The notes: generated by a model from the letters alone, not told the origin. A DNA stretch of 64,000 bases from Candidatus Bathyarchaeia archaeon (GCA_050010755.1 JBEKKK010000002.1:64001-128000), one strand, 5' to 3'; positions 7,730-58,280 are shown, counted from the stretch's first letter. Made by a program: numbers and translations.

Positions 7730-8051
7730 GGAGACACCTCATCGATATTACCTCTCCCTTATGTGATATTAAAAAGAGTGTTCCTTAGTGTGCGCTATTT
7801 ACAGTTGCGCTTCTTCAAAAATCAAGAAAGTCTTTAGAGACTTGAATGGTACGTGCGCGCCTTTAACAACGATTAGAAATGTGTGCAGATTGAAGTGGAA
7901 TTCGAGACCAATTGGGTTCCGAAAGACGAGGAAGAAGTCAAAAAAATTCATTCAACTTGGGTATGATAACAAGTTCAACGAAAAATAGTGAAAAATGTCA
8001 AAGAAAAACTGCAAGGTAGGCAACCAAGAATAGGCTGAGACTAACGCGCCG

Positions 8052-10100
8052 CTAAAGCTTTGGATGTTTCATAACTGCAGCACGGTTTTGAATGTCGAAC
8101 GCACATTCTAGGATGGAATTGATTGTTTGGGCAAGTGCAAGTGGGTTCTTGATCATCAGCGCATGAACGAACTCATGCATGAATATTGGTTTCCCAACTT
8201 TGCCTCCACGCCTGCTGACAGAATCTGCCACCTTTTTGTAAAGTTTTGGATCCAGATTCCCCATGAATTTCTCTACATCTTCCTTGAAAAAGAAGACTCT
8301 ATGCTTACATGCATCGTCGGACACTTCCGACTCTATGATCCTGTAGTCTCCATTGCCGCTGTATGAAAAGGCACGCCCTCTGAGGTCAGACTCATCTTGG
8401 TTGTCCCCGTCTGCCACCACGGTGTAGGGCACACAAAAATAATTAAGCAGTTTGTGATACTTCGGAAGCCCGCACTTCCCTCCAGCATCCACAATAACGT
8501 CCTCGTATGTGTCTGGTTCCATATTGCAAGCGTCCGAAACGGCCTCCAGGAACCCCCGATCTGTCTCCCCTTCAACCAACAGAACATGACGCGCGAAAAA
8601 TATTCGAGTATCTATCTGGTAGGACAGCCTGTACCTTTCCGTGCTGGACCAAACATTCTTTGTGTCTAACACGGTCGCCACGCTCTCTTTGACAGGTCTG
8701 CGAACATGGATGATCGATGCATCTCTCTCAAAAAGAAGATAACGCAACAGTGTGGGCGAATGCGTGATGACTACAAGCTGGTTCGACGGCTGTTTGGCCA
8801 TCTTAAAGAGGGCTTTCATCTGAGCTGGGTGTAGATTGACGGCGGGCTCGTCGAGTAACACTAAAGAATCTTTCAACCCGATGAGGGCGGTCAATATGAA
8901 CAGGGATTCGGATATTCCGGCACCCACCTTGTCCATAAAGAACTGTTTTGAGTTTCTTGCGTCTTTGACAACGACGTGGGGATAACGAAAATCATTGTTG
9001 GAACCTGGCGCCACCTGTTGAGAAGCCCGGTGCATGCTCAACGGGAGGATCACAACATCAAGGGTGAGATTGGCAAAGAGCGTGCCGAACATATCTTGAA
9101 TGAGACCAAATCTCTCACGTTCTTCTGGCAGATAAGAATTCTTAAGGCCATACAGATACTCTGCAAGATTCCAACCGTCTGGCTCCAAGATAGCTGGAAG
9201 TCTTGTCGAATCAATTATCTCCTGAGCAACCGTTTTTTGTGTGCCTGTGCTCTCTTCGAACTGAAGGGCCTTTCGAAAGAAGATTGTTCCTCCACTGGAA
9301 AGGAAAAATGCGTGCTTGAAAATTGCAGCTACCATCTGAGAGAATGAAATACTGTAACCATAGTTTGGACCGAAACTCAGTCCAGCAAACCTGAAAAGCC
9401 TATCCAGAACCATCCAGTCAGCTGTAGGATTTGCTAGGTTACTACCGGAAACTGGCGGAACAGGGAAATACCAGCCTTTCGATCCTGCAAGTTGTGACGC
9501 ATTGGCCGTTTCTGGGTTTTCTGTAGCGAGGCTTTCGATAAACTGGGGAAGTCTATCATGAGGGGTCGAACCTTGTGGAAACGGAAATTCGGGCGCAACA
9601 AACGCTGTCGCTTGCGGTGCTTGACTGTAAATCTTCAGACCAAGGCCATCAATGTAGAAGATGCAGATTGGCGATAGCGCTGCATTATTTGAAGGTTGCC
9701 AGATCACCTCTATGCGCAAGGTTTTCAATAAGTCTGCAACCTTCATCCGATTCTTGAACGAATGAACAAAGGTTTGCTCAATATTGCCTTGGGTTTTTAA
9801 TTGATACACACTGAAGAAATCGAGTAGGGTTTCCGCCTCTTCGTCGGAAAACCGAATACAGACCTCCAGTCGCGGGTCGGAAAGACGAGAGAAGATGTCT
9901 GCATCGCTGAGCGCAGAACTGATGGTTAAGGTGTCAACAAGCAGCTTGAGTGCACGAAAGATGTTAGATTTGCCCGAGTCGTTCGGACCCACAATCACAC
10001 TCACTTCGGAGAAAGAAATCGTATCGTGGTCCGAGTTGGCCGCACTGATATCGCCATACGAATACAGGTTTGAGATTCTGAGTCGGTCAATGTGCACCAT
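8052..10100 (-). CDS. OLD-family ATP-dependent nuclease (ABC ATPase + TOPRIM)
   Basis: GPNDSGKS Walker A, LLDEP Walker B, ITHSP H-loop, VLLVEGETD and DGD TOPRIM motifs. Confidence 0.85.
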   Translation of the reverse strand: MVHIDRLRISNLYSYGDISAANSDHDTISFSEVSVIVGPNDSGKSNIFRALKLLVDTLTISSALSDADIFSRLSDPRLEVCIRFSDEEAETLLDFFSVYQLKTQGNIEQTFVHSFKNRMKVADLLKTLRIEVIWQPSNNAALSPICIFYIDGLGLKIYSQAPQATAFVAPEFPFPQGSTPHDRLPQFIESLATENPETANASQLAGSKGWYFPVPPVSGSNLANPTADWMVLDRLFRFAGLSFGPNYGYSISFSQMVAAIFKHAFFLSSGGTIFFRKALQFEESTGTQKTVAQEIIDSTRLPAILEPDGWNLAEYLYGLKNSYLPEERERFGLIQDMFGTLFANLTLDVVILPLSMHRASQQVAPGSNNDFRYPHVVVKDARNSKQFFMDKVGAGISESLFILTALIGLKDSLVLLDEPAVNLHPAQMKALFKMAKQPSNQLVVITHSPTLLRYLLFERDASIIHVRRPVKESVATVLDTKNVWSSTERYRLSYQIDTRIFFARHVLLVEGETDRGFLEAVSDACNMEPDTYEDVIVDAGGKCGLPKYHKLLNYFCVPYTVVADGDNQDESDLRGRAFSYSGNGDYRIIESEVSDDACKHRVFFFKEDVEKFMGNLDPKLYKKVADSVSRRGGKVGKPIFMHEFVHALMIKNPLALAQTINSILECAFDIQNRAAVMKHPKL

Positions 10101-10293
10101 GAATACAAAAGATGATGTAACTCCTAATGAAGATTATGGGCGGTCGATAATCATGTATTGTCAAGTTGGTATAGAGCGCGCGCTAAGATTCATATTCCTT
10201 ACATGAACAATTTAACACTTATCAGGTGCTAGGTGACGAGGAGGCTAGGAAATGAAGAATGCAGCGCGTGCTCGGGGCGGTCTCTGGCTTGAA

Positions 10294-11640
10294 TTAGGCA
10301 CCCAAAATGTCCTCGATGTCTTGTTCTTTGATTACCCCAGTTATAGCGAAGAGCATCTCCAAGTCTTCCTTTGTTATATCTGGGTCCATAAAGTATCGTT
10401 TAAGAACGGATAGGAGCAGTTCAGCCCTCATCATGATTATGCTGCTAGCGCCAGAAGACACGCTTATCTTTCTGAGTTGCTTTTCCGAGACATCAAAGTC
10501 GCTTGAGATTATCATGAAGTAGATTTTTTCTATTCCCTCTTTCTTCAACTTTTTCTTGTTTTCATCTATATACTCGATTAAGGTTCTATCATCCACTGCA
10601 TGGAGCGAGAATTTATCCATCCTGCATTTGCAATCATAGATAATTGCATAGTGGTTTTCCTTATCTTTGGCTATCCCGTCAGGACCTCTTTTACCTCTCC
10701 CTAATTTCTCAACTTCAAACTTCATAAGTCTGAAAAGAAGGTAGACTTTATCTTCAAAAACGTCCTCAAGCTCCTTCCCAACATATCTTTTTTGGATTGT
10801 ATCGTCGTTTCTGGCTATCAAGGGCAAATCTGATATTACCGGTGGCAAGAAATCATCCGAAACAACAAGAGGGCCTTTCATTCCTTGCGGTTGTAAGACG
10901 ACTTTAGTTTTCAGTCTAACCTCAGCATTATAATAGTTCCATACGATGTGTTCGACGTCCCAAAAATTAGTCTTCCTGTTCAGGTTTTGTGCAAAAAGGT
11001 CTTTCAAACAGTTGTTCAGTTCAAAAAAAGATTCATAGTATAAATCCAATTGCTCGGTCTCTGTCAGAAAACCGAGATTCTTAAATGATATTTCCAATGA
11101 ATTGTAGAATATCGGAAACTTTTCTGGGTCTTGAATCTGCCAGAAGTAACTCAGGAAAAACAATGATGACTTAGTTTTCGGCGCCTTCCTTTTAGCCATG
11201 CCTTTGGACATCATCGAATGGTTGATATTCCCTACAAATCCGACAAATCTCGCTAGTTTTTCTTTAGCTTCTTTCAAATCCCTCGGAGCTTTCAAACAGT
11301 CTAGAAGTGTTTGGTGCAAACTCTGAAGAAGCCCGACTTCCTGTGAGCTGTTGTAGAGCATGTTGAAGAACATCATTCCATTCATGCCCTTGAATCCCCA
11401 TAACCTATTCCTTTTGTTTATGCTATCAATTTCCAGTTTGAACTTCTCAAGAGTGATCTTTTGATCAAAGAAGCTATTGAGAAGTGGCGCAATTCTGCCG
11501 ATAACCGTCAACCTCTTTTCGTCTAACTCTTTGCACGGAACTTGCACATCCAAGCTCGGTTCAAGACACCTCTCTCCATTCTTGGTGTAGCTTTCAAGCA
11601 GATTCAGTGCAACTTCACGTTCTCGAGAATTAAGGTTCAT
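10294..11640 (-). CDS. putative restriction endonuclease with C-terminal PD-(D/E)xK (FokI-cleavage/Mrr-like) domain
   Basis: FEDKV...PDGIAKD...IIYDCK catalytic pattern; helical N-terminal putative recognition domain (FLSYFWQIQDPEKFPIFY). Confidence 0.65.
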   Translation of the reverse strand: MNLNSREREVALNLLESYTKNGERCLEPSLDVQVPCKELDEKRLTVIGRIAPLLNSFFDQKITLEKFKLEIDSINKRNRLWGFKGMNGMMFFNMLYNSSQEVGLLQSLHQTLLDCLKAPRDLKEAKEKLARFVGFVGNINHSMMSKGMAKRKAPKTKSSLFFLSYFWQIQDPEKFPIFYNSLEISFKNLGFLTETEQLDLYYESFFELNNCLKDLFAQNLNRKTNFWDVEHIVWNYYNAEVRLKTKVVLQPQGMKGPLVVSDDFLPPVISDLPLIARNDDTIQKRYVGKELEDVFEDKVYLLFRLMKFEVEKLGRGKRGPDGIAKDKENHYAIIYDCKCRMDKFSLHAVDDRTLIEYIDENKKKLKKEGIEKIYFMIISSDFDVSEKQLRKISVSSGASSIIMMRAELLLSVLKRYFMDPDITKEDLEMLFAITGVIKEQDIEDILGA

Positions 11641-12721: not shown

Positions 12722-13237
12722 ATTCCCTTCAGCAGAAGCAGAAACCGTCTATAAACTTTTTGTGAAGCGCACACTCTTGCTCTCCTATTCGCCCACATTC
12801 GACGCCGCTCTAACAGCAAACAGCGCGCGCAACACGGATTAATCAAAACTCGTTTTTATTCGTTTTATTCGTTTTTGTTTTTTTGTTTTCGGAGCGAACA
12901 TTCATTCGGATAATCGGAAGCATGGTTCGCGAGAAGTCGCGGATTCTGTCGTTGTTGGTGTAGTGTTGAGAACGAACGAAAGAAAAAGGGACTTTGAGCG
13001 CGTTAATCAAAACGCGTCTGTTCGTCGTCTTGTATGTCAAGTCGCATAGTCGGAAGTTCAAGTCCTTTAAGCGCGCGCTAGACACGAGACAAACAAGACG
13101 GAAGTGAAATCGTCAAAAACGGATGAACCCCGCAAGCGCGCAGTTGCATCTTGCGCGAGAAAAGCAGCCTATTGTCCTATGACTTTAGATGAATCTAATT
13201 AAGGTGTTACACAATAGTGCATATAGAAGGTTTAAGA

Positions 13238-13966: not shown

Positions 13967-13975
13967 TAGCGCGCT

Positions 13976-15074
13976 GGCTTGTCCCTAAATTGAGTTAATG
14001 TTTAATTTGGGAAGTGGGGTCTCGTATTTTGTGTTACGTCCAAGCACAGGAGGTGAATCCTTTAGCTGGACAAGATGAACACGAGACCCTAGAAACCCTC
14101 TTCAAAAACATAGACTTAAGCTTTGCTAGGAATGTCTTGCGCGGATGCTTTCACGCTTCCGGTGCGGGCAGGCCTCCTAGGAACCCATTGGGGCTCTTCA
14201 GAACCTTCATCGTCATGCGAATGAAAGGCGTTCGCAGTCTAAGAGAAATGACCCGCCTACTCGACACGGACCTGCGGCTCAGAAGACTGTGCCTCATCAA
14301 ACCAGGCGAAGCAGGCTATCCCAGAAGCGTTCTGAGCAGGTTCATTCGCAAAGTCGGAGAAGACAACCTCACCAAGATAATCGAGGAGAAAGTAGTCAAA
14401 CTCTTGAAACGGAACAACGCAAAAGACGTTGACGCCGTGTTTGACGCTTCCTTCATCAAGGCCTGGAGCACACGCCACCCACTGGACAACCAGAGAGGCC
14501 TTTCTGATGGTGATGCAAGGGTTGGAAGAGCAGGCAGAACCTTCGGACTCGGTTACAAGCTGCACCTTTCCATCGACTCCAAGAGCATGCTTCCTCTAAC
14601 GAACGTTTTTGCCTCGGCAAACCAGAACGAGAAGAAACACTCGCTGAACATACTGGAGAAGACGAAGACTATTCTAAAGCGGTCTGCAGCCAAATTGAGA
14701 AGCGTGATAGCTGACAGCCAATACAGCGACGGCAAACTCAGAAACGCCGTCGACGCGACAGTGATTCCTTACCCGGCAAACCAGAAACGCGGCGTAAGAG
14801 ACATACTCAGGGTGGACAAGAAGTTTCGAACCTACGGGCCTGAAGACCAGAAGAATGAGTATCATAAGAGGCCTCATATAGAGGCGGTCTACAGCTTCCT
14901 GAAGAACCAGTACAGCCTATCCATAAACAAAGTCAGAGGAGTAAGAAACGTGGCTTCCTACGCGCTCTACAGCCTACTGTGCCTGGTTCTGAACAGAGAA
15001 GCAGCAGAAAACACAGGAAGACCAGACAAAGCAGTCTCACCAACATACTTCAACACATAATAAAGGGACAAGGC
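13976..15074 (+). mobile_element. insertion sequence (IS4/IS5-superfamily DDE), about 1.1 kb
   Basis: IRL GGCTTGTCCCTAAATT 13976-13991, IRR AATAAAGGGACAAGGC 15059-15074 (13/16 match); flanks AGCGCGCT and AGCGCGCG resemble an 8-bp target duplication. Confidence 0.85.
14014..15060 (+). CDS. DDE transposase (DUF772 + DDE_Tnp_1-like)
   Basis: GRPP N-terminus, FDASFI (D), GYKLHL, IADSQY (D), YHKRPHIEAVYSFLK (YREK/E). Confidence 0.9.
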   Translation: MGSRILCYVQAQEVNPLAGQDEHETLETLFKNIDLSFARNVLRGCFHASGAGRPPRNPLGLFRTFIVMRMKGVRSLREMTRLLDTDLRLRRLCLIKPGEAGYPRSVLSRFIRKVGEDNLTKIIEEKVVKLLKRNNAKDVDAVFDASFIKAWSTRHPLDNQRGLSDGDARVGRAGRTFGLGYKLHLSIDSKSMLPLTNVFASANQNEKKHSLNILEKTKTILKRSAAKLRSVIADSQYSDGKLRNAVDATVIPYPANQKRGVRDILRVDKKFRTYGPEDQKNEYHKRPHIEAVYSFLKNQYSLSINKVRGVRNVASYALYSLLCLVLNREAAENTGRPDKAVSPTYFNT

Positions 15075-15126
15075 AGCGCGCGATTTATAAGTGCGCTCTG
15101 ATTCTGTTCGGGAGCCTTGAGGGGAA

Positions 15127-15843
15127 TTGGAATTGACGGATCAGAAGTCACGCGGGATTTATCGCAATATCAGCGCGACAAGAATGGTAGCCTCAACACT
15201 CGGTGTTTTCGGCGGACTCATGAGTATGGAACACGGTTTTTTTGAAACACTTCAGGGTAATCACTCACCAAACAGCATAATCATAGACGCTATCGGTAAC
15301 CAAGCAAACAGCGCCTTTCAGGGCAGTGAACCTGCCTTAACGATCATACCCAACTTCTTAGTAACTGGCATACTTGCGATGATTGTCAGCCCTATAGTCA
15401 TAGTATGGGCGGCCAAGTTTATCCAAAGGAAGAACGGCGTATTCTTCCTGATTCTTCTCTCAACCATCCTTTTTCTGTTTGGAGGAGGACTTGCACCTCT
15501 ATTAATTCTTGTTATCGCAAGTGCAGTCGCCACCAGGATAAACAAGCCGTTAACGTTTTGGCGCGTGCATCTCTCAGGCAACGCAGGTCGCTTCTTGGCA
15601 AAGTTGTGGCCTTATCCATTCATCGTCGTGTTCTTGCCGTCTTTAATCAACGTTCAAAATGCAATTTTTGGGAATTTCTTCGGTTTGAACATTCCGAATT
15701 TTTCAGCAATTCTTTTTCTCTTCATTTTTGGGCTACTTCTGCTAAGTGTTGTCAGTGGATTTGCGTATGATATCCAAAAAAAGACCGATTCACATCAGAC
15801 ACCTTCAAAGACCCAGCAAACAAGCCGCACGCGCCCTAATTAA
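15127..15843 (+). CDS. multi-pass membrane protein of unknown function (passenger between IS ends)
   Basis: About 6 hydrophobic helices; MEHGFFETLQGN and EPALTIIPNFL segments. Confidence 0.75.
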   Translation: MELTDQKSRGIYRNISATRMVASTLGVFGGLMSMEHGFFETLQGNHSPNSIIIDAIGNQANSAFQGSEPALTIIPNFLVTGILAMIVSPIVIVWAAKFIQRKNGVFFLILLSTILFLFGGGLAPLLILVIASAVATRINKPLTFWRVHLSGNAGRFLAKLWPYPFIVVFLPSLINVQNAIFGNFFGLNIPNFSAILFLFIFGLLLLSVVSGFAYDIQKKTDSHQTPSKTQQTSRTRPN

Positions 15844-15857
15844 TTTAGGGACAAGCC
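15842..15857 (-). mobile_element. solo inverted copy of the IS left terminal repeat
   Basis: AATTTAGGGACAAGCC is the exact reverse complement of 13976-13991 and is followed by AGCGCGCT. Confidence 0.85.
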
Positions 15858-15863
15858 AGCGCG

Positions 15864-16217
15864 CTATTGCATAAGGCTGCTCACCCAAGCCCAAGCTATG
15901 AGACTCAGGAGGATACCCCAAATAATCCCAAAAATAAGCAAGTTTTTAGCCATATCCTTGTCTCTGTCTTTCGTTCCGACATATCCAATCAGCCCCCCAA
16001 TAATTCCGAAAAAGAACGGTACCAGATACCATAATGACGACGGCGCGTCAACACCGTAGTATTCCTCAGTTTCTTGAAGTTCTGAAGGATTATAAGTGCG
16101 CGCGTTAACATTTATTCTGCGAGCTCCGCAATATGGACATGCTACCCATGTTGACTCGATCACTTTCTTGCATTGAAGGCAAACTGTGGTAGGAGTTGTC
16201 CCTTCCCTCTCTGACAT
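15864..16217 (-). CDS. zinc-ribbon domain membrane protein
   Basis: CLQC...CPYCG followed by two TM helices; start moved to ATG 16217. Confidence 0.8.
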   Translation of the reverse strand: MSEREGTTPTTVCLQCKKVIESTWVACPYCGARRINVNARTYNPSELQETEEYYGVDAPSSLWYLVPFFFGIIGGLIGYVGTKDRDKDMAKNLLIFGIIWGILLSLIAWAWVSSLMQ

Positions 16218-16420
16218 CTCTATTCCATGATCATTACTGAAGTAGCACCTTAAAAAGACTAATCCTACGAGCACTCTCCATGCGCGCGCGAACCAAACAC
16301 CTCCAAAAACACAATAGTCTGAGATCCAATTAGCGCGTGCGCTAAGGGCAACCCACGAATATCCTCTTGGGCGAAATCATTAATTAGTCGGCAAGCAAAT
16401 CATGGAGTTGTGAGTCACGA

Positions 16421-16813
16421 TTGTCGATTAGTAAGAATGGAATCATGCAGGTGCAAAGTGGGCATTCTTTTGCAGAAACATTCGAACGACTAAAGTCCAT
16501 TGCAGTGTCCCACGGACTCACAATTTTCGCCACAATAGATTTCAGCGAAGACGCCGAACGAGCAGGTTTGAAAATGAATCCCACACGACTGCTTATCTTC
16601 GGCAACCCAAAAGCAGGCACTCCACTGATGATCTCCTCACCAACCGTTGCCATCGATTTTCCGCTAAAAGCCCTCGTCTCCGAAGATGAAAACCGGAAAG
16701 TTACAATATCCTACAACTCGCCGCAGTACCTAGAGGCGCGCCACAACATTCCAGATGAACTATTAAAAAACATCTCAGGCATAGTGTCAATCGTAGAATC
16801 TGCAGCTAAATAG
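16421..16813 (+). CDS. DUF302 family protein
   Basis: IFATID...LLIFGNPKAGTPLM...AIDFPLK signature. Confidence 0.85.
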   Translation: MSISKNGIMQVQSGHSFAETFERLKSIAVSHGLTIFATIDFSEDAERAGLKMNPTRLLIFGNPKAGTPLMISSPTVAIDFPLKALVSEDENRKVTISYNSPQYLEARHNIPDELLKNISGIVSIVESAAK

Positions 16814-16871
16814 CATAAACATTTTGCTTAGACAGAGCTTAGTTTGGTTCTGAGACCGCGCGCCCTTTTTG

Positions 16872-17570: not shown

Positions 17571-17618
17571 GGTTTTCCTCTTTCACTGTGTATTTTGTAC
17601 GGTATTAGTCTCTCCGAA

Positions 17619-18326
17619 CTAAAGCCTCGCGCGCGCTAGCGCGTAAGGCCGATCGTGCATTTTGGCTTCGGCATTGTTTTCTTTTGCCTCCTTGTTCCAG
17701 CCTCGACCGCCGAATAGACGCGTCATACTCTTCGCCAGAAAAAGCGGGAGGAAGAGGGCGGAAGCCAGGTCTTCAGCTTCTTCTGACATGGGCTGGCCTT
17801 CTGAAAGGTTGACGGAAGCTAACGAAAGACCTCTCGTGAGTTTCCTGGTCATTCCCTTCTTCTCATCCAACGGTTCGCTATTTAGGGCCATACCCGAGCC
17901 GACGCGGATTCCGCCTCCCCATTCAAGATTTGACTCTTGAGCAAAGTTGCGGATGATTTTGAGGGCGATGTCCATGTGTTCCTTTTCTGGGAAGCCGCTG
18001 TTCATGACGGCAACTAACATCTGCGTTTTCGTTGGAGACACAGCCTTTCGATGTTCATGAATCAGTTCCAAGACTCTGATAGTTGAAGAGGGCAAGCTGT
18101 CAACGTACAGTGGAGTGGCAAGGATTATCACGTCAGCGTTATCAACGGAACCCAACAGTTTCTCAGTGCCTTCACACGTTTTCACTAAGCGAGTGGCAAA
18201 CGCCTCTTCAACTACTAGACTCTTTTCCTCCAGTTTGTCTGCCAGAAATTTTCCGATTACATGAGAGTTGCTTCTTTCGCATCTCGGGCTTGCCGTCAGA
18301 AGCAGGACGTTTCTAGGCTGGCTCAT
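17619..18326 (-). CDS. flavodoxin-like NAD(P)H-dependent oxidoreductase
   Basis: ASPRCERSNS, ATPLYVDSLP, NSGFPE motifs. Confidence 0.8.
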   Translation of the reverse strand: MSQPRNVLLLTASPRCERSNSHVIGKFLADKLEEKSLVVEEAFATRLVKTCEGTEKLLGSVDNADVIILATPLYVDSLPSSTIRVLELIHEHRKAVSPTKTQMLVAVMNSGFPEKEHMDIALKIIRNFAQESNLEWGGGIRVGSGMALNSEPLDEKKGMTRKLTRGLSLASVNLSEGQPMSEEAEDLASALFLPLFLAKSMTRLFGGRGWNKEAKENNAEAKMHDRPYALARARL

Positions 18327-19563: not shown

Positions 19564-19567
19564 CCAT

Positions 19568-19602: not shown

Positions 19603-20218
19603 CAAAGTCCTATAAAAACCTATCCATCCAGAACAATGATTCAACTCGAAACACTCGCACTTCCGTGCGCACCATCATTGAACACTCTGCTGTCAATGAA
19701 ATTGACCAGCGCGGCTAGTCAACGCTAAAACTGCAGAAGATTCAAGCAGGAACAATTGAATGGTTTTGAAAAGGATCCGAAAAAACTACAGGAAAATTTA
19801 GCGAACATTCAAGGATGGATAAGGGAAATTGAAGCCTTGTTGAATGCGTTTACACTTTAGCGCGCGCGGAATCTCCTTTCTATATACGGAAACATGTCCT
19901 CAATAGATTATTTGCAGATTACAGATTAGTCGGTTTGATACTTTCTAGGATTAGCGAACGCTTGAGGATGAGAAGAATGAAGGGGAAGACGAAGAAGAGG
20001 AAAACAAAAGGCGTGGAAGTTGTCTCCGATACTATCAATTGCTTATTAGCGTTTGAACTTGATGGCGATTCTCGCTGTGCCGGAGATGCCTGCCTTAGTG
20101 GCTGTTAAAACAGTGGGGTCTCACTTTCAAAAGAGTATCCTCGCCATCGGATAGAGCTGATTCAGCTCGCCCTATGACGCTCAAATGAAAGCTTCCGCCC
20201 GCGCTCATCTTGTCTCGT

Positions 20219-25081: not shown

Positions 25082-25525
25082 GGTCTAATGTCTCATCACT
25101 GAGGTTACGTAAGCGCTATCACTTCCGCTGATCGTTCGGAATAAGCTTGAGCGCGCGCTACGAGTTGTGCTCAGCACCGGCAAAAAATTTCAGATTCCCA
25201 CTGCACCGAACATGCCTTTCTTCGCCAGCTTGGCTCGAACGCCTCCTAGAATCCTTTCCGATGCGCCTATTCGCACCAAGAAATGATAGTATTGAAGAAG
25301 CATTCTATAATAGAGCAATTGCAAGCCAAGAAGAGTCAACTGCACTGCCATTCCAACAGCTCAATTGCAGTAGAGATTTGCAACTTATTAAAGATTTAGA
25401 AGGCGCACGCTACTACCCATAAACCCTTTTCCTGATTCATAGAAATCTCTAATCTGCACAGCAACAAAAGCGCGCCCGACTTAGGGCAGTGAACTGTAAG
25501 GATCAGAAGTCTTATATTTACAGCA

Positions 25526-26179: not shown

Positions 26180-26388
26180 TTAACGCAGTGTTATGAGAAT
26201 ATGTCAGAAGCGTTACCATCAGCAAAGCGCCCGCACTCCTGAAAGGGTTTTAAGATATGTCTGACTTTATTTCACCGTTTTCGTACTTCAGGAGTAGCGT
26301 CAAAAAGCCAGCAATAAGCTAAACGATGCTAGCGCGCGCTAGTGTTAAATATAGCGAATCAGAAACGAGCAAGCTGAAGGCGAAGTCT

Positions 26389-26937: not shown

Positions 26938-27064
26938 AAACGAATTTGCCGATGATCCGCGTTGCAAGTCCTTGATTAGCGCGCGCCAACCAGACAGACA
27001 AGACTTCGTGCCCACAAATCTATTTCAATACTGAACGGGATATGTTTTGTGCGGATGCGTGCAC

Positions 27065-27412
27065 ATGGAAGCTGAGTTCGGCTGGATAAAAGTGAACGGA
27101 GTCAGATACGAAAAAGACATCATCATACACACCGACGGCACGATAACTAAAAGAGAAAAGAAAAAATCCCGAGATCTAAAGCCCAAGTACGGTCACACTC
27201 CTCTCTCTGAACGCGAGCTCATGTTCCTTGAAAATGAAAAGCCCGAAGTAGTGTACATCGGAACGGGCCATCAAGCAGCGCTGCCCATCACGCCTGAAGC
27301 CCAACAAATCCTGAAAAAATACGAAACCATCATCCTCCCCACACCCCAGGCAATTGAAAGAATAGACCAAGAGCACCGAAAACTAGCCGCACTCATACAC
27401 GTAACATGCTAG
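27065..27412 (+). CDS. Mth938-like domain protein
   Basis: FGWIKVNGVRYEKDIII, VYIGTG, ALIHVTC C-terminus. Confidence 0.85.
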   Translation: MEAEFGWIKVNGVRYEKDIIIHTDGTITKREKKKSRDLKPKYGHTPLSERELMFLENEKPEVVYIGTGHQAALPITPEAQQILKKYETIILPTPQAIERIDQEHRKLAALIHVTC

Positions 27413-27492
27413 TGCCCGCTATTCTCCCAGTTCTCGCCAGCCTTATTACTCTATAAGACAATCATTTAATCGACCAAGGAGTAGGGATTGCC

Positions 27493-34027: not shown

Positions 34028-34031
34028 AAGA

Positions 34032-36933: not shown

Positions 36934-36978
36934 CCCCTGTTTATTTTTCGTAGGCTAGCGCGCGCCACTGCAGCAAGC

Positions 36979-39555: not shown

Positions 39556-39752
39556 CGAGTCGCCGACCCTAACCCGCGTCAAACTGATGAGCACAGCCTA
39601 AGCTTATTAAATTTTAAACAAAGCCCGATTGGCGCGGGTGGCCGCCCATTTGAAAATCCTGATCACCATTGCTAGCGCGCTCGCGCGCCGTCTCAATGAT
39701 TCTAAGGCTCGAAGAATACGTATGAATAGTAGAAGCTCGTACAATTAACGCC

Positions 39753-54770: not shown

Positions 54771-55075
54771 GTCCAGACAGGGTCACTCCAGCAACTTAGA
54801 ATTTGCAGCGTTATGGAAATCCGCTATTTTAGTCTTGCGCGCATGTCACGATATTTCCAACAAAAGACGATCTAGGGAACTCCCTAATCCGTAAGAAGCC
54901 CATGAGATGAGTGAAATGGGCCCGTTTTTGTTGCTATGATGTTGGCTGTGGCGCCCTTGTCGGAGCTGATAATGAGAATGTGGCATATGGTTTGATGAAC
55001 CCTCCAGCTGAAGATTTTGGACCATTTTCCAAACAGACGCGCGCGCATGAGGACGGTGATGAATACCGAAGTCTT

Positions 55076-56230
55076 CTACTCAGTAAGTGAATGATGCCAA
55101 GTGATTATATATTCAGGCAGTCTGAGTCCTCTTTCGCCCAGTCTTTCAACCAGTCTCACGGGCAACGGGCTTAAAATATACGCTGCCCTCATGTAAAATC
55201 TCCTAGGCTGCCCAGGCTTAACTTCTTCCTCTAGAGTTATCTGAAGGTCTGATTTTTCCTTCAAGGTTGATTTTTTCGTCCCAGTGATTGACAGAACCGT
55301 TCCGTTCATTTTTTTCAGGATGTCACACCAGGCTATGACGGGTTTGGTTTCCCCAGAGTATGACACTAGGATTTCCAAGTCGCCCGGTCTTGGAGGCGGA
55401 GTGTTCACACCTCTCGTGATGTGCACGTTGTCTCCGAGCGTACTCTTTATGTGAAAGAGTCTTATGGCCGCCATCTTGACTATCTCGTTTGCTGTGCCTT
55501 TCCCCCCTAGAAAAACGTCGGTCCTCCTTTCTAGAATGTCTACGAGCCTTGAGTACGTTTCAGATTCCGCAATAGAGTCAATCAACGGTCCAAGCTTGGC
55601 GAACTCTTCTTCACAGAGCTGAAGCACCTCGGGCGGCTCCAGGTTTCTGAACATGGCCTCGGTCATCATAAAAAGGAGGAGGAGACTTCCCAGCTCGAAG
55701 ATGTCGCCCATTATGCCCGTCTCACTGTAATCAAGCGAGGGTTTCGCTCGGCCTCTCCCCGATAACTCGACAACGTGTCCACATTTGCTAGCAATGTCTG
55801 CCAGCGGCGAATTCAGGTTCGAGGTTATGAGCCCCATGGAGAACTTTGACGACTTCTTGTCGCCTATGTACCTGAAAAGGTCCTGCGCCAGGACCAGCGG
55901 GTCGGCAGACACTCCGCTTCCAGAGTTTATCAAAAAGAAGATCTTGTTGTAACGCCTCTCAAGCTCGGCCGCGGCGTCGTACATGTTCTTTCCGGGAAAA
56001 CCAGGATCGTCAGGAGTCAGCACAACCTTGTTTCTCCAGCCTATGTGACTGATGGCTATTTGACTCATGGCCGCGTTCAACGAATACAGCGATCGTCCAG
56101 ATCCGCCGCACACGACACAGTCCGCTGACTTCAGATCTTCATACAGAGACGCCAACTCTCTCTTCCTGACGCTGAGCAGGTTGTCCCTAATCCTGTTAAT
56201 GTATCCGATGCGGCTGACCTTGCTTCTAAT
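55076..56230 (-). CDS. tandem SIS-domain sugar-phosphate isomerase-like protein (HxlB/PHI-like)
   Basis: GGSGRS, NSGSG, MGDIFE, VSYSGET, SITG; frame open 25 codons upstream of 56155 to an ATT. Confidence 0.78.
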   Translation of the reverse strand: MRSKVSRIGYINRIRDNLLSVRKRELASLYEDLKSADCVVCGGSGRSLYSLNAAMSQIAISHIGWRNKVVLTPDDPGFPGKNMYDAAAELERRYNKIFFLINSGSGVSADPLVLAQDLFRYIGDKKSSKFSMGLITSNLNSPLADIASKCGHVVELSGRGRAKPSLDYSETGIMGDIFELGSLLLLFMMTEAMFRNLEPPEVLQLCEEEFAKLGPLIDSIAESETYSRLVDILERRTDVFLGGKGTANEIVKMAAIRLFHIKSTLGDNVHITRGVNTPPPRPGDLEILVSYSGETKPVIAWCDILKKMNGTVLSITGTKKSTLKEKSDLQITLEEEVKPGQPRRFYMRAAYILSPLPVRLVERLGERGLRLPEYIITWHHSLTE

Positions 56231-56389: not shown

Positions 56390-57388
56390 GTGACGCTGTT
56401 GGAAAATGCCATAGAAACAAGTGAGCTTACCAAGCGCTTCAGCAGCCTTGTGGCAGTCGACAAGCTCAACATTTCGGTCGAGAAGGGGGAAGTTTTCGGC
56501 CTGCTAGGGCCTAACGGCGCGGGAAAGACGACGACTATTTCGATGCTCTGCACTTTATTGAAGCCAAGTTCCGGCTGGGCAAAGGTTAACGGTTTCGACA
56601 TCGTCAAGCAAGATACGCAAGTGCGAAACTCAATCGGTATTGTTTTTCAGGATCCGAGCATCGACGACAGGCTCACTGGCAGGGAGAACCTTTACATGCA
56701 CGCCAACCTCTACGGAGTGCCCACCAGCGAGCAGAAGCCGCGCATTGACAGGGTTTTGAAACTGGTTGAGCTTGACACAAGGGCTGACGATCTCATGCGA
56801 ACCTACAGCGGCGGGATGAGACGGCGCCTAGAAATTGCCCGAGGACTGATACACTACCCGAAAATCTTGTTCCTAGACGAACCCACTATCGGGCTCGACC
56901 CCCAGACACGAGAGCACATCTGGACGTACATTGAAGATTTGAGGAAGGCTCACGAAGTCACAATGATTTTGACGACGCACTACATGGACGAGGCAGACCG
57001 GCTCTCAGACCGAATAGCCATAATGGACTACGGCAAGATTGTGGCCTCGGACACACCTGCCAAGCTGAAGGACACGCTTGAAGGCGACGTAATAAGCATC
57101 AAGACCAAGGAAGCCGCGAAGCTTTCTTCCCTCATTGCCGGAACGGCAGGCGTTCTGAAAATCAATACGGTGAACGATGGACTTGACCTCACAGTCCGCG
57201 GCGGAAAGGCTCTCCTGCCCAGAATAGTGGAAACAGCAGCGAAAAACGGCATCTTCATTGAATCCGTCTCTCTCCGTGAGCCGAACCTCGCAGATGTTTT
57301 CCTGCACTACACCGGTAGGGGGATCCGAGCTGAAGGCAGCGATGAGCTTCACGGTATGTCCGCCATCCGGAGGAGACAGATCAAATGA
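56390..57388 (+). CDS. ABC-2 exporter ATP-binding subunit (DrrA-like)
   Basis: GPNGAGKT, YSGGMRRR, LFLDEPT, TTHYM. Confidence 0.93.
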   Translation: MTLLENAIETSELTKRFSSLVAVDKLNISVEKGEVFGLLGPNGAGKTTTISMLCTLLKPSSGWAKVNGFDIVKQDTQVRNSIGIVFQDPSIDDRLTGRENLYMHANLYGVPTSEQKPRIDRVLKLVELDTRADDLMRTYSGGMRRRLEIARGLIHYPKILFLDEPTIGLDPQTREHIWTYIEDLRKAHEVTMILTTHYMDEADRLSDRIAIMDYGKIVASDTPAKLKDTLEGDVISIKTKEAAKLSSLIAGTAGVLKINTVNDGLDLTVRGGKALLPRIVETAAKNGIFIESVSLREPNLADVFLHYTGRGIRAEGSDELHGMSAIRRRQIK

Positions 57389-58167
57389 CGGAGATGCGGG
57401 GAATCTACACGCTCTGGCTGCGAGAAGTCAAGCGTTACCTCCGAGACAGGGCCAGAATCGTGAGCAGCTTCGTCCAGCCCCTCCTTTGGCTAGCCATATT
57501 CGGCAAGGGCCTAAGTTCTCTCGCAAGGGGGATTCAGTTGGGCAACCTGACATATCAGCAGTACATTTTCCCAGGCATAGTCGGACAGACGCTTCTGTTC
57601 ACTTCAATGTTCATGGGCATCTCAGTGATATGGGATAGAGAATTTGGTTTTCTGAAGGAGATAATGGTGGCTCCGATTTCACAATTTTCAGTCTTTTTAG
57701 GCAAAATGCTGGGCGATAGCACAGATGCCCTGATTCAAGGAACAATGGTTTTCGTCATGGGCGCCATCTTGGCGTCATTTCTAGGTATTAATCTCAACCT
57801 CACTGTTTTTCTGGAATCTCTGCCAATCATGGTTCTCATCACGTTTGGACTAGTGGGTGTCGGCCTCACGGTGGCCAGCTTAATAGAGAGCCTCGAAAGC
57901 TTCGGCGTAATACAGAGCTTCATAAACCTACCACTATTCTTCCTGAGCGGGGCGATTATCCCTCTCAGCGGTCCTGGAGTTCCTGAATGGCTGCAAATCG
58001 CCTCACGATTCGACCCCTTAACCTACGGCGTGGACGCATTGAGGACGATCATCGATGGCAAAGCTTGGCAACCACTGTACCCGCTATACTTCGACATCGT
58101 GATAATCTGCGCCTTTAACATTGCCATGATCATCATCGGAACTCTGATGTTCAGCAGAAGAAAATAG
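57385..58167 (+). CDS. ABC-2 exporter permease
   Basis: WDREFGFLKEIMVAP, PLFFLSGA, PLTYGVDALR. Confidence 0.92.
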   Translation: MTEMRGIYTLWLREVKRYLRDRARIVSSFVQPLLWLAIFGKGLSSLARGIQLGNLTYQQYIFPGIVGQTLLFTSMFMGISVIWDREFGFLKEIMVAPISQFSVFLGKMLGDSTDALIQGTMVFVMGAILASFLGINLNLTVFLESLPIMVLITFGLVGVGLTVASLIESLESFGVIQSFINLPLFFLSGAIIPLSGPGVPEWLQIASRFDPLTYGVDALRTIIDGKAWQPLYPLYFDIVIICAFNIAMIIIGTLMFSRRK

Positions 58168-58280
58168 CCGACACTCTCGCGATGTTGCAGCATGACTTTT
58201 GGTACAGAGAAAAGATCATGCGGAGCAAAGCAAACCAAAGACAAAGGATTGTCTGGCCGAACCGCGCGGTATGTGAAATA

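What the first reader, a model, noticed from the sequence alone, without database searches (positions are those of the whole stretch)
7854..58270. A TAGCGCGC(GC) motif marks module boundaries across the accessory region: candidate non-integron gene-cassette or insertion-hotspot system
Seen: about 30 short CG-alternating sites lie in otherwise AT-rich spacers or at gene ends. Examples are AGCGCGCGCTAA 10175, AGCGCGCGCTAG 13070, TTAGCGCGTGCGCTAA 16330, TTAGCGCGCGCGG 19857, AGCGCGCGCTA 25150, the perfect palindrome CTAGCGCGCGCTAG 26329-26342, TTAGCGCGCGCC 26976, GGCGCGCTAG 30923, CTAGCGCGCGCC 36955 and CTAGCGCGCTCGCGCGCC 39672. By eye the exact 8-mer TAGCGCGC occurs about 15 times on both strands, 13 at gene boundaries; a rough random expectation at about 45% GC is near 1. 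Sites separate functionally unrelated modules (defence genes, GNATs, DUF302, TetR-flavodoxin, Lrp, each kinase, the aIF-1A unit, mgtA, alkD) and are absent from junctions inside operons (pdxST, glt, hamAB, ABC pair). Modules face both ways, as a palindromic core would allow. Inference: these are crossover or target scars of a recombinase or transposase that inserts and shuffles gene modules. Alternatives are a HIP1-like iterated palindrome, a Z-DNA-prone or chromatin-protein site, or a methylation target.
Basis: partly seen in the sequence, partly recalled or inferred. Interest (0 to 1): 0.88.

Follow-up and report, generated by a model that had tools for sequence, protein, structure and literature searches.

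The report
Iterated GC palindrome marking insertion joints
A short GC palindrome, repeated hundreds of times between the genes of this peat archaeon, sits where inserted or reshuffled DNA begins and ends, which suggests a so far undescribed way that these archaea take up and move genes.

Summary
TAGCGCGC occurs 15 times in the window against about 1 expected. It is not local to this region. In the whole 2.19-Mb Bathyarchaeia genome, GCGCGCGC is the most over-represented 8-mer (253 sites, about 12x expectation). 78% of sites lie in the 17.5% of DNA that is non-coding. The consensus is tA-GCGCGCGC-Ta with no longer conserved context. The 12-mer form is abundant in all 4 congeners and in several other Bathyarchaeia families, and near zero elsewhere.

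Comparison with a congener shows it marks discontinuities. 3 of 88 conserved-adjacency spacers carry it, against 91 of 472 non-conserved junctions (p=7e-5). Homology crosses only 2 of 214 intergenic sites, against 14-17 of 214 same-spacer controls, and it ends at the site twice as often as chance. An IS5-type IS in the window, a MITE-like repeat and a copied gene fragment are each bracketed by two copies.

Best reading: an insertion or recombination joint. The enzyme was not found: the transposase, Ku, C5-methylase and a FokI-like nuclease do not track the motif.

The parts
10176..10183 (.). Motif copy aGCGCGCGCt, in the spacer between the OLD-family ATPase gene 8052-10100 and the FokI-domain gene 10294-11640.
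12823..12830 (.). Motif copy. It is also present at the homologous place in metagenome relative L114, and homology to L114 ends about 26 nt beyond it.
13071..13078 (.). Motif copy aGCGCGCGCtag, inside a doubtful 80-aa ORF.
13969..15864 (+). IS5-type element. It has perfect 23-nt terminal inverted repeats GCGCGCTGGCTTGTCCCTAAATT (13969-13991, and the reverse complement of 15842-15864), with TA outside both ends. The inner, imperfect right end lies at 15060-15082. It carries the transposase ORF 14014-15060 and a passenger ORF 15127-15843.
   Evidence: In peat metagenome contigs the 14003-15336 stretch has raised depth, and loose ends occur at 15081 and 15866.
14014..15060 (+). DDE transposase (Pfam DDE_Tnp_1 plus DUF772).
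   Evidence: Homologues were found in 60 of 301 class genomes and do not track the motif.
16282..16290 (.). Motif copy GCGCGCGCG, 7 nt beyond the start codon of the minus-strand zinc-ribbon gene 15864-16274.
16330..16345 (.). Degenerate palindrome TTAGCGCGTGCGCTAA. It could be a decayed copy or a variant with 2 nt inserted.
17628..17636 (.). Motif copy CGCGCGCGCtag, overlapping the last codons of the flavodoxin-like gene 17619-18326.
19860..19868 (.). Motif copy. Homology to relative L115 begins exactly here. L115 has TAGCGCACGG at this point, joined to a different left neighbour.
25151..25158 (.). Motif copy. Homology to L114 (block 23156-25150) and to congener G002 stops exactly at its first base. 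The 253-nt segment to its right has a paralogue on contig C4 that is bracketed by two motif copies.
25470..25475 (.). 6-nt copy. The homology edge of a variant strain in run X5 begins at 25472.
26329..26342 (.). Perfect 14-nt palindrome CTAGCGCGCGCTAG. The X5 variant contig's homology begins at 26335, inside it.
26979..27421 (+). One-gene module (DUF498 gene 27047-27412) bracketed by a perfect copy (26979-26986) and a decayed copy TAGTGCCCGCTA (27410-27421, which includes the TAG stop). The window, L114 and L115 each join different DNA to each end. L114 has a perfect copy at the right end, followed by a truncated DUF302 gene piece.
36958..36965 (.). Motif copy 13 nt after the stop of the P-type ATPase gene 36979-39594.
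39675..39688 (.). Double copy GCGCGCtCGCGCGC, upstream of the same ATPase gene.
55038..55046 (.). Motif copy 29 nt after the stop of gene 55076-56155. G002 has CGCGCGCGCG at a similar distance; G004, G003 and G001 have none. G004 has about 3.8 kb and G002 about 2.7 kb inserted in this spacer.

Best explanation
The motif (t)A-GCGCGCGC-T(a) is a lineage-specific, highly iterated intergenic palindrome that works as an insertion or recombination joint. Pieces of DNA of many kinds lie between two copies of it, as if a break at one copy had taken up the piece and the copy had been duplicated, the way a target-site duplication is. These pieces include an IS5-type insertion sequence, a MITE-like 450-nt repeat, copied gene fragments and one- to few-gene modules. 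Each such event adds a copy. Copies then decay, mostly by C-to-T or G-to-A changes at their CpGs.

Shown: the motif's abundance, its restriction to spacers, its sequence specificity, its patchy distribution among lineages, its strong association with places where gene order and sequence homology between congeners break, and concrete bracketed inserts.

Inferred: that a sequence-specific nuclease, integrase or transposase cuts at the motif with a stagger. No such enzyme was identified. It is also undecided whether the motif is always a pre-existing target or sometimes arrives with the insert.
For: 1. Sequence specificity.
- GCGCGCGC is the top 8-mer by z-score: 253 sites, 11.8x an order-2 Markov expectation.
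- Maximal runs are 147 GCGCGCGC against 22 CGCGCGCG.
- A at -1 is 73% and T at +1 is 67%, with nothing conserved beyond +-2.
- The half-sites AGCGC/GCGCT occur at spacing 0 (69 times) and 2 (14 times), and otherwise at background, 4 or fewer.

2. Location.
- 78% of sites lie outside gene calls, which cover 82.5% of the genome. Seven other 6-nt palindromes (six GC-rich) are 11-21% non-coding.

3. Synteny, using 1.16 Mb of congener G002 against G000 (594 reciprocal best hits, median 85% amino-acid identity).
- Among spacers of 80-500 nt, 3 of 88 conserved-adjacency spacers carry a site, against 91 of 472 non-conserved junctions (Fisher p=7e-5).
- The same direction holds for tandem (1 of 54), divergent (1 of 26) and convergent (1 of 8) gene pairs.

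4. Homology.
- Only 2 of 214 intergenic G002 sites are crossed by a blastn match to G000 with 30 nt or more on each side.
- Random places in the same spacers are crossed in 14-17 of 214 cases, and seven other palindromic 6-mers in spacers in 48 of 206.
- A match edge lies within 5 nt of the site in 24 of 214 cases, against 10-12 of 214 in controls (low-complexity filter off).
- In all 24 edge cases, homology lies on one side only.

5. Independent tests of edge coincidence.
- Flank extension from orthologous genes: 14 against 7.7+-2.5 (P=0.016), and 9 against 2.8+-1.6 (P=0.0015).
- Intragenomic repeat ends: 75 against 25+-7.

6. Bracketed inserts.
- The IS at window 13969-15864.
- Two copies of the roughly 450-nt repeat family that have a motif copy at both ends; most of the other 7 copies shown have one at the left end.
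- A 316-nt gene fragment at G000:C1:790540-790873 lies exactly between two copies, while its full-length paralogue has none at those positions.
- By my reading, 7 distinct segments of 91-460 nt have both ends at sites.
- A 6-kb insertion in G004 is flanked by TA-GCGCGC and GCGCGTGC-TA.

7. Ends of truncated protein-coding remnants fall within 6 nt of a site 12 times, against 4.2+-1.9 (P=0.002).

8. Other relatives and strains.
- Homology-block edges fall on the motif in metagenome relatives L114 and L115.
- In a variant strain in another sample, edges fall at 25472 and 26335, with loose ends at 15081 and 15866.

9. Patchy distribution, consistent with a transferable determinant.
- 12-mer counts are 3-23 in 4 of 4 congeners, 4-39 in 5 of 5 genomes of family f35, and 3-32 in 8 of 10 of f26.
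- Counts are 0-1 in f24 (53 genomes), f34 (44) and f11 (22). The reversed-pattern control is about 0.
Against: - Most junctions have no motif. In 31 clean cases with a lineage-specific segment of 300 nt or more, only 4 of 124 junction points have a run of 7 nt or more within 3 nt, and 15 of 124 have a run of 6 nt or more within 20 nt. Against a spacer-wide background this is only about a 2-3x excess.
- The excess at exact edges is about 2x everywhere it was measured.
- A 992-nt insertion in G002 replaces the 10-mer exactly, yet has no motif at either of its own ends. This does not fit a simple duplication model.
- In 23 of 24 edge cases the partner genome has no perfect copy at its homology end, so a pre-existing target is often not visible.
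- TA on both flanks is not more frequent than independence predicts: 10 against 15.9.
- No enzyme was found. There is no multi-copy transposase and no C5-methyltransferase. The transposase, Ku and the FokI-like protein do not follow the motif's distribution.
- The systematic tests rest on one genome pair, on half of G002, on metagenome-assembled genomes (G000 is 93% complete with 4.4% contamination) and on my own crude gene calls.
- Conserved-adjacency spacers may simply be under stronger constraint. That would produce part of the depletion without any mechanistic link.
Confidence: 0.55

Rival explanations
1. The motif is the signature of one transposon group. GCGCGC is the outermost part of the terminal inverted repeats of an IS5-type IS and its MITEs. 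Solitary copies are excision footprints, or remnants left when the element is deleted between its two palindromic ends (which are therefore also direct repeats). Rearrangements come from recombination between dispersed elements.
For: - The window's IS has 23-nt inverted repeats that begin with GCGCGC and are flanked by TA.
- In 4 of the 6 other loci checked, IS copies with 60-78% identical transposases show the same GCGCGC termini (G308, G206, G135 and G166; the last three genomes have no copy of the 12-mer). No inverted-repeat pair was detected in the other 2 loci.
- The 450-nt repeat family starts GCGCGCGC-(T/A)GGCG and ends AGCCT-GCGCGCG.
- Other insertion contexts of the IS in metagenome contigs read GCGCGC-TA.
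Against: - Only 4 exact IS-type ends, plus 1 with two mismatches, exist in G000. Only 16 of about 921 GCGCGC positions are followed by WGGC, against 4 for the control.
- There is no conserved sequence inside solitary copies.
- TA on both sides occurs 10 times against 15.9 expected.
- The transposase is common where the motif is rare (f24: 30 of 53 genomes) and was not found in family f35 (0 of 5), where the motif is most abundant.
- Simple insert-then-excise scars should sit in collinear DNA. Yet only 2 of 214 sites are crossed by homology, and none of the 24 edge cases has homology on both sides.
- The run next to the MITE-like copies varies in length and phase (6-9 nt). That fits target-derived sequence better than part of a fixed terminal repeat.
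Confidence: 0.15
2. The motif is the binding site of a host protein that marks the edges of transcription units, such as a roadblock or insulator, a termination aid or a nucleoid organiser. It coincides with breakpoints only because surviving rearrangements keep whole transcription units, and because newly formed junctions select for a new boundary.
For: - A 10-bp palindrome suits a dimeric DNA-binding protein.
- Density is highest 0-40 nt after stop codons (1.1-1.4 per kb, against 0.3-0.6) and lowest 0-60 nt upstream of starts (0.21-0.34 per kb).
- Density is twice as high in convergent spacers (0.87 per kb) as in tandem (0.46) or divergent (0.41) ones.
- A patchy distribution would follow a lineage-specific protein.
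Against: - Only about 8-11% of spacers have a perfect copy: 76 of 1056, 33 of 384 and 41 of 357.
- In the first 400-kb sample, 0 of 6 site-bearing conserved spacers shared the site between G000 and G002.
- Conserved transcription-unit boundaries of 80-500 nt almost never carry it (3 of 88).
- Copies bracket a copied gene fragment and abut truncated gene remnants, which a boundary element does not predict.
- No consistent T-tract follows the sites that lie after stop codons.
Confidence: 0.12
3. The word is enriched by a sequence-biased enzymatic process without insertion. This would be a HIP1-like situation, tied to an orphan methyltransferase or restriction-modification system, or to biased short-patch repair, that favours GCGCGCGC.
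For: - It is an 8-nt palindrome with hundreds of copies and a patchy phylogenetic distribution, like HIP1.
- N4/N6 methyltransferase genes are present in G000.
- Decayed copies differ mostly by CpG transitions (GCGCGTGC, GCGCACGC, GCACGCGC).
Against: - No C5-methyltransferase was found in G000, which is 93% complete.
- The motif is almost confined to spacers. HIP1, as I recall it and not from a call, is common in coding DNA too. A genome-wide repair bias should also act in genes.
- This does not explain bracketed inserts or the near absence of homology across sites.
- The CpG observed/expected ratio is 0.98.
Confidence: 0.08
4. It is a structural or mutational by-product: a Z-DNA-prone (CG)n tract or a dinucleotide microsatellite that arises by slippage and is fragile.
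For: - The sequence is alternating C/G.
- Run lengths of 6-11 nt occur.
- From my own knowledge and not from a call, Z-DNA-forming tracts promote breaks in other systems.
Against: - There is strong phase preference: 147 G-start against 22 C-start 8-mers.
- The run-length distribution peaks at 8 rather than decaying smoothly.
- Specific A/T flanks are preferred.
- The motif is absent from most related genomes of similar composition.
Confidence: 0.03

Closest known systems
HIP1 (GCGATCGC), the highly iterated palindrome of cyanobacteria
   Same: Both are 8-nt GC-rich palindromes, many-fold over-represented and lineage-restricted, with no agreed function. From my own recall and not from a call, HIP1 was first noticed at the borders of a deletion.
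   Different: - HIP1 is reported as conserved and quasi-periodic within genomes, and is recognised by two methylases (abstracts of PMC5861425, PMC13756078 and PMC4390886, seen in the listing).
- This motif is almost confined to spacers (78% of sites in 17.5% of the DNA) and is not conserved in position between congeners.
- It occurs in an archaeon with no C5-methylase detected.
REP/BIME elements of bacteria, which serve as preferred targets of some IS elements and are mobilised by RAYT transposases
   Same: Both are intergenic, palindromic and present in hundreds of copies. Both lie after gene ends, are used as landing places by IS elements, and are associated with genome plasticity.
   Different: - REPs are 20-40 nt imperfect hairpins with a conserved head (recalled, not from a call). 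This motif is 8-12 nt with no conserved context, and no variable-loop hairpin forms exist.
- No search for RAYT or IS200-type transposases was run.
Target-site duplication at DDE transposon insertions, especially target-specific IS elements
   Same: The insert lies between two copies of a short sequence. This is seen for the IS, the MITE-like repeat and a gene fragment.
   Different: - The duplicated sequence is the same palindrome at all sites.
- Some inserts have no transposon ends at all.
- The one transposase found does not track the motif.
Integron gene cassettes with attC sites
   Same: Arrays of unrelated one- to few-gene modules are separated by a recurring recombination site that often lies just after the stop codon.
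   Different: - attC sites are 50-150 nt structured imperfect repeats that act with an IntI integrase and an attI site, and cassettes share one orientation (recalled, not from a call).
- Here the site is 8-12 nt, modules face both ways and have their own upstream regions, and sites are dispersed over the whole genome.
Restriction-enzyme-linked genome rearrangement and restriction-mediated integration
   Same: A palindromic site of 6-8 nt lies at joints between unrelated DNA. Fill-in of staggered ends would duplicate most of the site on both sides of a captured fragment.
   Different: Restriction sites are normally avoided in the host genome, not enriched. No cognate nuclease or methylase was identified here.

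Membership tests
Integron (attC / IntI cassette array) | attC: a 50-150 nt imperfect inverted repeat with R''-L''...L'-R' structure at each cassette 3' end | tested here: not met
   There is no conserved sequence beyond +-2 nt of the 8-nt core. No half-site pairs occur at spacings of 1-15 nt apart from 0 and 2.
Integron (attC / IntI cassette array) | An IntI-type tyrosine recombinase with attI and Pc at the head of one array | tested here: inconclusive
   Three Phage_integrase-domain genes are present in G000, one of them 4 kb upstream of the window. They were not typed as IntI. Sites are dispersed genome-wide rather than in one array.
HIP1-type highly iterated palindrome | A short perfect palindrome, many-fold over-represented genome-wide and lineage-restricted | tested here: met
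   11.8x over an order-2 Markov expectation and the top 8-mer. The distribution among lineages is patchy.
HIP1-type highly iterated palindrome | Cognate orphan methyltransferases recognising the core | tested here: inconclusive
   No C5-methylase was found. N4/N6 methyltransferase domains are present, but their specificity is unknown.
HIP1-type highly iterated palindrome | Sites frequent in coding DNA and positionally conserved | tested here: not met
   78% of sites are non-coding. Only 2 of 214 intergenic sites lie in sequence alignable across them.
REP/BIME | 20-40 nt imperfect palindromic hairpin units, often clustered in alternating orientation | tested here: not met
   The element is an 8-12 nt perfect palindrome with no extended consensus and no loop variants.
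IS5-family insertion sequence (the element in the window) | DDE_Tnp_1 transposase between terminal inverted repeats | tested here: met
   Pfam DDE_Tnp_1 (E=4e-13) plus DUF772. The inverted repeats are 27 nt and 100% complementary.
IS5-family insertion sequence (solitary motif as its footprint) | Solitary copies carry remnants of the element ends and a symmetric target duplication | tested here: not met
   There is no inner consensus. TA occurs on both sides 10 times against 15.9 expected. Only 16 sites are followed by WGGC.
DNA uptake sequence (DUS/USS) | Enrichment in the conserved core genome and inside recombined tracts | tested here: not met
   Sites are depleted from conserved-adjacency spacers and from alignable DNA.
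Intrinsic transcription terminator | A position after genes together with an oligo-T tract (the archaeal type) | tested here: not met
   Sites are enriched after stop codons. But T reaches only 35-40% at +4 to +10, with no consistent tract, and density in divergent spacers is similar to that in tandem ones.
Z-DNA tract / (CG)n microsatellite | No phase or flank preference and a smooth length distribution | tested here: not met
   147 G-start against 22 C-start 8-mers. There is a peak at 8 nt and A/T flank preference.

The most novel reading that the evidence does not exclude
Several Bathyarchaeia lineages carry a transferable, sequence-specific DNA-breaking or integrating activity that cuts at AGCGCGCGCT with a stagger. 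Any DNA at hand can then be captured at the break: gene modules, gene fragments, IS elements or MITEs. The site is duplicated at each capture. This would be a cassette platform with a minimal 8-10 bp site and no attC-like structure. It would multiply its own landing pads and drive the rapid scrambling of gene order seen between congeners.
Probability: 0.3. Interest if true: 0.9.

Novelty: new variant of a known kind. Interest (0 to 1): 0.74.

Why it matters
Bathyarchaeia are abundant, uncultured archaea of peat and sediments. How their genomes gain and reorder genes is little known. Here gene order is highly scrambled between congeners: only 306 of 1110 adjacencies are conserved at 85% protein identity.

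A short palindrome that is the most over-represented word of the genome gives a concrete, searchable marker for insertion and rearrangement joints. Homology between species almost never crosses it, and it brackets inserted DNA. This makes three things testable:
- which enzyme makes the joints, by phylogenetic profiling against the patchy motif distribution;
- whether archaea have a minimal-site analogue of cassette capture;
- what highly iterated palindromes are for, a question that the papers I saw still describe as open or only beginning to be answered for HIP1.

My four literature searches listed no description of this motif. Alternating G-C runs are reported as generally suppressed in prokaryotes (PMC4060949), so the enrichment itself is unusual.

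Tried and rejected
- Hairpin with a variable loop. Half-sites occur only at spacing 0 (69 times) and 2 (14 times). Rejected.
- Terminator. No consistent T-tract follows the 86 sites that lie after stop codons. Rejected as a general role.
- Part of a longer repeat. The position matrix is flat beyond +-2 nt. Rejected.
- Assembly artefact. Short-read contigs of another sample (X3) cover 15837-20302 with 0 differences, across four sites. Rejected.
- BLAST low-complexity masking as the cause of broken matches. Repeating the test with the filter off gave the same result.
- End-joining footprints. Ku (PF02735) was found in 88 of 301 class genomes, but not in G000. It is in only 1 of 10 f26 and 1 of 5 f35 genomes, and is common in the motif-poor f24 (25 of 53) and f34 (26 of 44). 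Not supported.
- The IS5-type transposase as the determinant. It was found in 60 of 301 genomes: 30 of 53 in f24 and 0 of 5 in f35. Not supported.
- The FokI-domain protein of the window (10294-11640) as the motif nuclease. It was not found with this query in 10 other genomes, including 4 congeners. Both answers were empty, and the tool warns that an empty answer alone shows little.
- C5-methylation. No PF00145 match in G000.
- Multi-copy transposases. None at 50% identity or more in my all-against-all comparison.
- Rfam. No match in the window at gathering scores. No match at E up to 0.1 for two copies of the 450-nt repeat or for a stretch of the 70-nt repeat array.
- RNA evidence. No RNA holder was listed by the look-up of sequencing runs, so expression and transcript ends could not be examined.
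- Strain-level relatives. The metagenome scan returned only one identical record and relatives at 89% identity or less.
- First systematic breakpoint test, on 400 kb of G002. It gave only a modest excess (8 of 176 ends, against 3.4+-1.6), so I enlarged the sample and changed the test.
- Not used: structure prediction, complex prediction and the protein-homology searches.
- Supplementary files of papers were not opened.

Full report
**What is there.** The window is G000:C2:64001-128000 of a 2.19-Mb, 8-contig, 47.7% G+C genome. The nearest records found with one of its proteins are Bathyarchaeia metagenome-assembled genomes from peat, bog and soil.
- TAGCGCGC occurs 15 times on both strands of the window, against 0.99 +- 1.07 in shuffles. 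GCGCGCGC occurs 11 times against 0.96.
- I count 40 alternating C/G runs of 6 nt or more in the window. 25 lie outside my crude gene calls.

**It is a genome-wide word with a defined sequence.**
- In the whole genome, GCGCGCGC is the most over-represented 8-mer: 253 sites, 11.8x an order-2 Markov expectation. The overlapping words AGCGCGCG and TAGCGCGC follow.
- GCGCGCGCTA is the commonest 10-mer of the genome, at 129 copies.
- Among maximal runs, GCGCGCGC (147) far outnumbers the other phase, CGCGCGCG (22), and the length distribution has a peak at 8.
- The base before the core is A in 73% of copies and the base after it is T in 67%. The next bases out are T (44%) and A (45%). Nothing is conserved further out.
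- TA on both sides together is not more frequent than independence predicts: 10 against 15.9.
- The half-sites occur only abutted or 2 nt apart.
- So this is a specific 8-12 bp palindrome. It is not a hairpin family, not part of a longer repeat and not a generic (CG)n tract.

**Where it lies.**
- 78% of the 253 sites lie outside gene calls, which cover 82.5% of the DNA. Seven other 6-nt palindromes (six GC-rich) are 11-21% non-coding.
- Density per kb of spacer is 0.87 in convergent, 0.46 in tandem and 0.41 in divergent spacers.
- Normalised for available DNA, density is highest 0-40 nt after stop codons (1.1-1.4 per kb) and lowest 0-60 nt upstream of start codons (0.21-0.34 per kb).
- No consistent T-tract follows it.

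**Who has it.**
- The 12-mer TAGCGCGCGCTA has a chance expectation of about 0.1 per genome, and the reversed control is about 0.
- It occurs 10 times in G000 and 3, 9, 23 and 16 times in the four congeners.
- It occurs 1 and 3 times in 2 of 14 other genera of the family, and 0 times in 12 genomes of other families of the order.
- Across 301 genomes of the class it is abundant in family f35 (5 of 5: 39, 36, 14, 4, 23), in f26 (8 of 10: 3-32), and in single genomes G218 (12) and G243 (13).
- It is absent or single in f24 (53 genomes), f34 (44) and f11 (22).
- The distribution is patchy, as expected for a transferable determinant or for repeated loss.

**It marks discontinuities.** I fetched 1.16 Mb of congener G002, which holds 284 sites. 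I called genes the same way and found 594 reciprocal best hits to G000 (median 85% identity). Only 306 of 1110 adjacencies are conserved.
- Spacers of 80-500 nt carry a site in 3 of 88 conserved-adjacency cases, against 91 of 472 other junctions (Fisher p=7e-5, odds ratio 0.15).
- The direction is the same for tandem (1 of 54), divergent (1 of 26) and convergent (1 of 8) pairs.
- The highest density, 1.6 per kb, is between two conserved genes that are not neighbours in G000.
- With the low-complexity filter off, a blastn match to the G000 genome crosses (30 nt or more on each side) only 2 of 214 intergenic G002 sites.
- It crosses 14-17 of 214 random places in the same spacers, and 48 of 206 occurrences of seven other palindromic 6-mers in spacers.
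- A match edge lies within 5 nt of the site in 24 of 214 cases, against 10-12 in controls.
- In all 24 edge cases the homology is on one side only.

Three further tests agree:
- Extension from orthologous genes into non-conserved flanks ends at a site 14 times against 7.7+-2.5, and 9 times against 2.8+-1.6.
- Ends of intragenomic repeats fall at sites 75 times against 25+-7. This count is inflated by one repeat family.
- G002-to-G000 match ends in the first 400 kb fall at sites 8 of 176 times, against 3.4+-1.6.

**Concrete joints in the window.**
- The DUF498 gene module 26979-27421 has a perfect copy at its left end and TAGTGCCCGCTA, overlapping its stop codon, at its right end.
- Relative L115 has TAGCGCACGC and TAGCGCACGG at the same two points. 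L114 has a perfect copy at the right one.
- Beyond these points the three genomes continue with three unrelated sequences. In L114 that sequence is a truncated DUF302 gene.
- Homology to L114 ends at 25150, the base before the copy at 25151.
- Homology to L115 starts at 19862 and at 26979, on two copies.
- Contigs of a variant strain in another sample have homology edges at 25472 and 26335 and replace 26915-27009. Loose ends occur at 15081 and 15866. Other edges in that run (11817, 23691, 26186) are not at sites.

**A five-genome locus.**
- G000 has GTCT-GCGCGCGCGC-AAATT between two convergent genes. G004 has GCGCGGACGC at the same point.
- G002 has a 992-nt insertion that replaces the 10-mer exactly, and its own ends carry no motif.
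- Next door, G004 and G002 share 60 nt after a stop codon, then have CGCGCGC and CGCGCG respectively, and then diverge completely.
- A 6-kb insertion in G004 is flanked by TA-GCGCGC, 6 nt in from one joint, and GCGCGTGC-TA, 5 nt in from the other.

**Inserts bracketed by two copies.**
- Window 14014-15060 encodes a DDE_Tnp_1/DUF772 transposase. Its element, 13969-15864, has perfect inverted repeats starting with GCGCGC, TA outside both ends, and an inner imperfect end at 15060-15082.
- Elements with 60-78% identical transposases in four other genomes also end in GCGCGC; three of those genomes have no copy of the 12-mer. So GCGCGC is either the outermost part of the element or a strictly preferred, duplicated target. 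A palindrome cannot tell these two apart.
- A non-coding repeat family of about 450 nt, with 9 or more copies, begins directly after a run of 6-9 alternating C/G in most copies. Its complete copies end with another such run.
- By my reading, seven distinct segments of 91-460 nt have both ends at sites.
- The clearest case is G000:C1:790540-790873. A 316-nt copy of codons 107-215 of a 229-codon gene (83% identical to the paralogue at C1:656011-656326) lies exactly between CGCGCGCGCGC and AGCGCGCGCG. The full-length paralogue has neither.
- Ends of truncated protein-coding remnants lie within 6 nt of a site 12 times, against 4.2+-1.9 (P=0.002).
- 46 of 407 sites adjoin the end of some intragenomic repeat, and these repeats have many different sequences.

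**Limits of the association.**
- In 31 clean cases of a lineage-specific segment of 300 nt or more between alignable flanks, only 4 of 124 junction points have a run of 7 nt or more within 3 nt. 15 of 124 (in 14 of 31 cases) have a run of 6 nt or more within 20 nt.
- Other insertions have different joints, for example a 13-nt direct repeat at one 5.8-kb insertion.
- The excess at exact edges is about twofold.
- Empty sites were seen both with the motif and without it (G002 C4 genes 45-48, where the insert starts TA-GCGCGC).
- Where a site lies in alignable DNA, the other species shows either one or two CpG transitions or a block of about 8 unrelated bases.

**Mechanism.** The most economical reading is a joint. 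A break at, or a junction made with, the palindrome takes up DNA and leaves a copy on each side. The number of copies therefore grows with each event, and old copies decay. This explains five things:
- the restriction to spacers, because events inside genes are lost;
- the depletion from conserved adjacencies and from alignable DNA;
- the bracketed IS, MITE-like repeat and gene fragment;
- the truncated gene remnants;

The cut, its stagger and the enzyme are all inferred. None of the candidates I tested follows the motif:
- the IS5-type transposase (60 of 301 genomes; 30 of 53 in motif-poor f24; 0 of 5 in f35);
- Ku (88 of 301; not in G000);
- C5-methylase (none);
- the window's FokI-domain protein (not found in 10 genomes).

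G000 has three tyrosine recombinase genes and several N4/N6 methylase domains that I did not profile.

**Rivals.**
- Footprints of one transposon family. For it: the IS termini. Against it: the rarity of IS-type ends, the lack of symmetric TA flanks, the transposase distribution and the lack of collinear scars.
- A boundary-protein site. For it: the enrichment after stop codons. Against it: the absence from conserved boundaries and the bracketing of gene fragments.
- A methylation-driven or repair-driven word bias cannot be excluded, but it does not explain the joints.
- Z-DNA or microsatellite origin. Against it: the phase and flank specificity.

**Comparison with what is known.**
- The closest analogue by form is HIP1 of cyanobacteria. 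By behaviour the closest are REP elements used as IS targets, target-site duplication and integron cassettes. The motif fails the defining features of attC, REP and uptake sequences (see the membership rows).
- Four full-text searches listed no paper describing this motif or a comparable archaeal element.
- In Elhai 2015 (PMC4390886), a term search found no mention of GCGCGC, archaea, intergenic or rearrangement.
- A survey reports alternating G-C runs as generally suppressed in prokaryotes (PMC4060949, passages).
- I read only listings, abstracts and found passages, and no supplements.

**Verdict.** The scope needs correcting and the enzyme is still missing. I rate it a new variant of a known kind, a highly iterated palindrome or insertion hot spot. 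There is a fair chance that a new minimal-site capture mechanism lies behind it.

Noticed in passing
G000:C1:1071522-1071984, 898022, 317910, 1414264, 219975, 578433(-), 1361838(-); C7:6234(-); C2:143192 (outside the window): A non-coding repeat family of about 450 nt, with 9 or more copies at 72-88% identity. It starts directly after the motif with GGCGAATTAAATAATTCGGGG (TATA-like, and itself a small palindrome). It ends after a T-run with ..TTATTTAACTAGCCT plus the motif. The ends are imperfect inverted repeats. There is no conserved ORF and no Rfam match. It could be a MITE or a small-RNA gene family.
   Followed up: partly
G000, e.g. C1:128021-128400, 195239-196200, 1251791-1252200; 69 hits of an 11-nt core word: A second repeat of about 70 nt (AACATGGAAAACTTACA..GCAACATTACATCTGATGTAAAGAAAAAAAGGGGAGGGGG). 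It often forms arrays about 170-190 nt apart with partly conserved spacers, some of which hold the motif (..GGCCGACCTTAA-CGCGCGCGC-CATTTT). There is no Rfam match. Related elements occur in G002 insertions.
   Followed up: partly
window 21190-21775 (GNAT acetyltransferase gene 21248-21775): In peat metagenome contigs this stretch has 165-506x depth against about 9x for its neighbours. 'Goes back' joints of about 580 nt, with short variable linkers, suggest tandem arrays of this gene family in abundant community members.
   Followed up: no
window 625-11640: A defence-type island: an Mrr-like endonuclease (625-2373), a DEAD/ResIII helicase (2456-4666), an OLD-family ATPase-TOPRIM protein (8052-10100) and a FokI-cleavage-domain protein (10294-11640). 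The last was not found in 4 congeners.
   Followed up: partly
window 36979-39594 (P-type ATPase, MgtA-like): Its closest homologues (79-85% identity) lie in lower-GC Bathyarchaeia records that lack the motif. Motif-rich relatives hold only 62-64% identical copies. This suggests the gene was acquired horizontally. It is bracketed by motif copies.
   Followed up: no
class-wide: Ku (PF02735) is present in 88 of 301 Bathyarchaeia genomes and is concentrated in a few lineages (g29: 22 of 30; f34: 26 of 44; f24: 25 of 53). This is a patchy end-joining repertoire in this archaeal class.
   Followed up: no
G000:C1, between my gene calls 1226 and 1229: A 5.8-kb insertion, relative to G002, flanked by a 13-nt direct repeat AACCTATCCGTTT. 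This joint is att-like and unrelated to the GC motif.
   Followed up: no
G000:C2:55464-55480 (8.5 kb upstream of the window) and C2:59855-60307: A solitary IS-type end (GCGCGCTGGCTTGTCCC) and a tyrosine recombinase gene lie just upstream of the window. The window's left part may belong to a larger integrated island.
   Followed up: no
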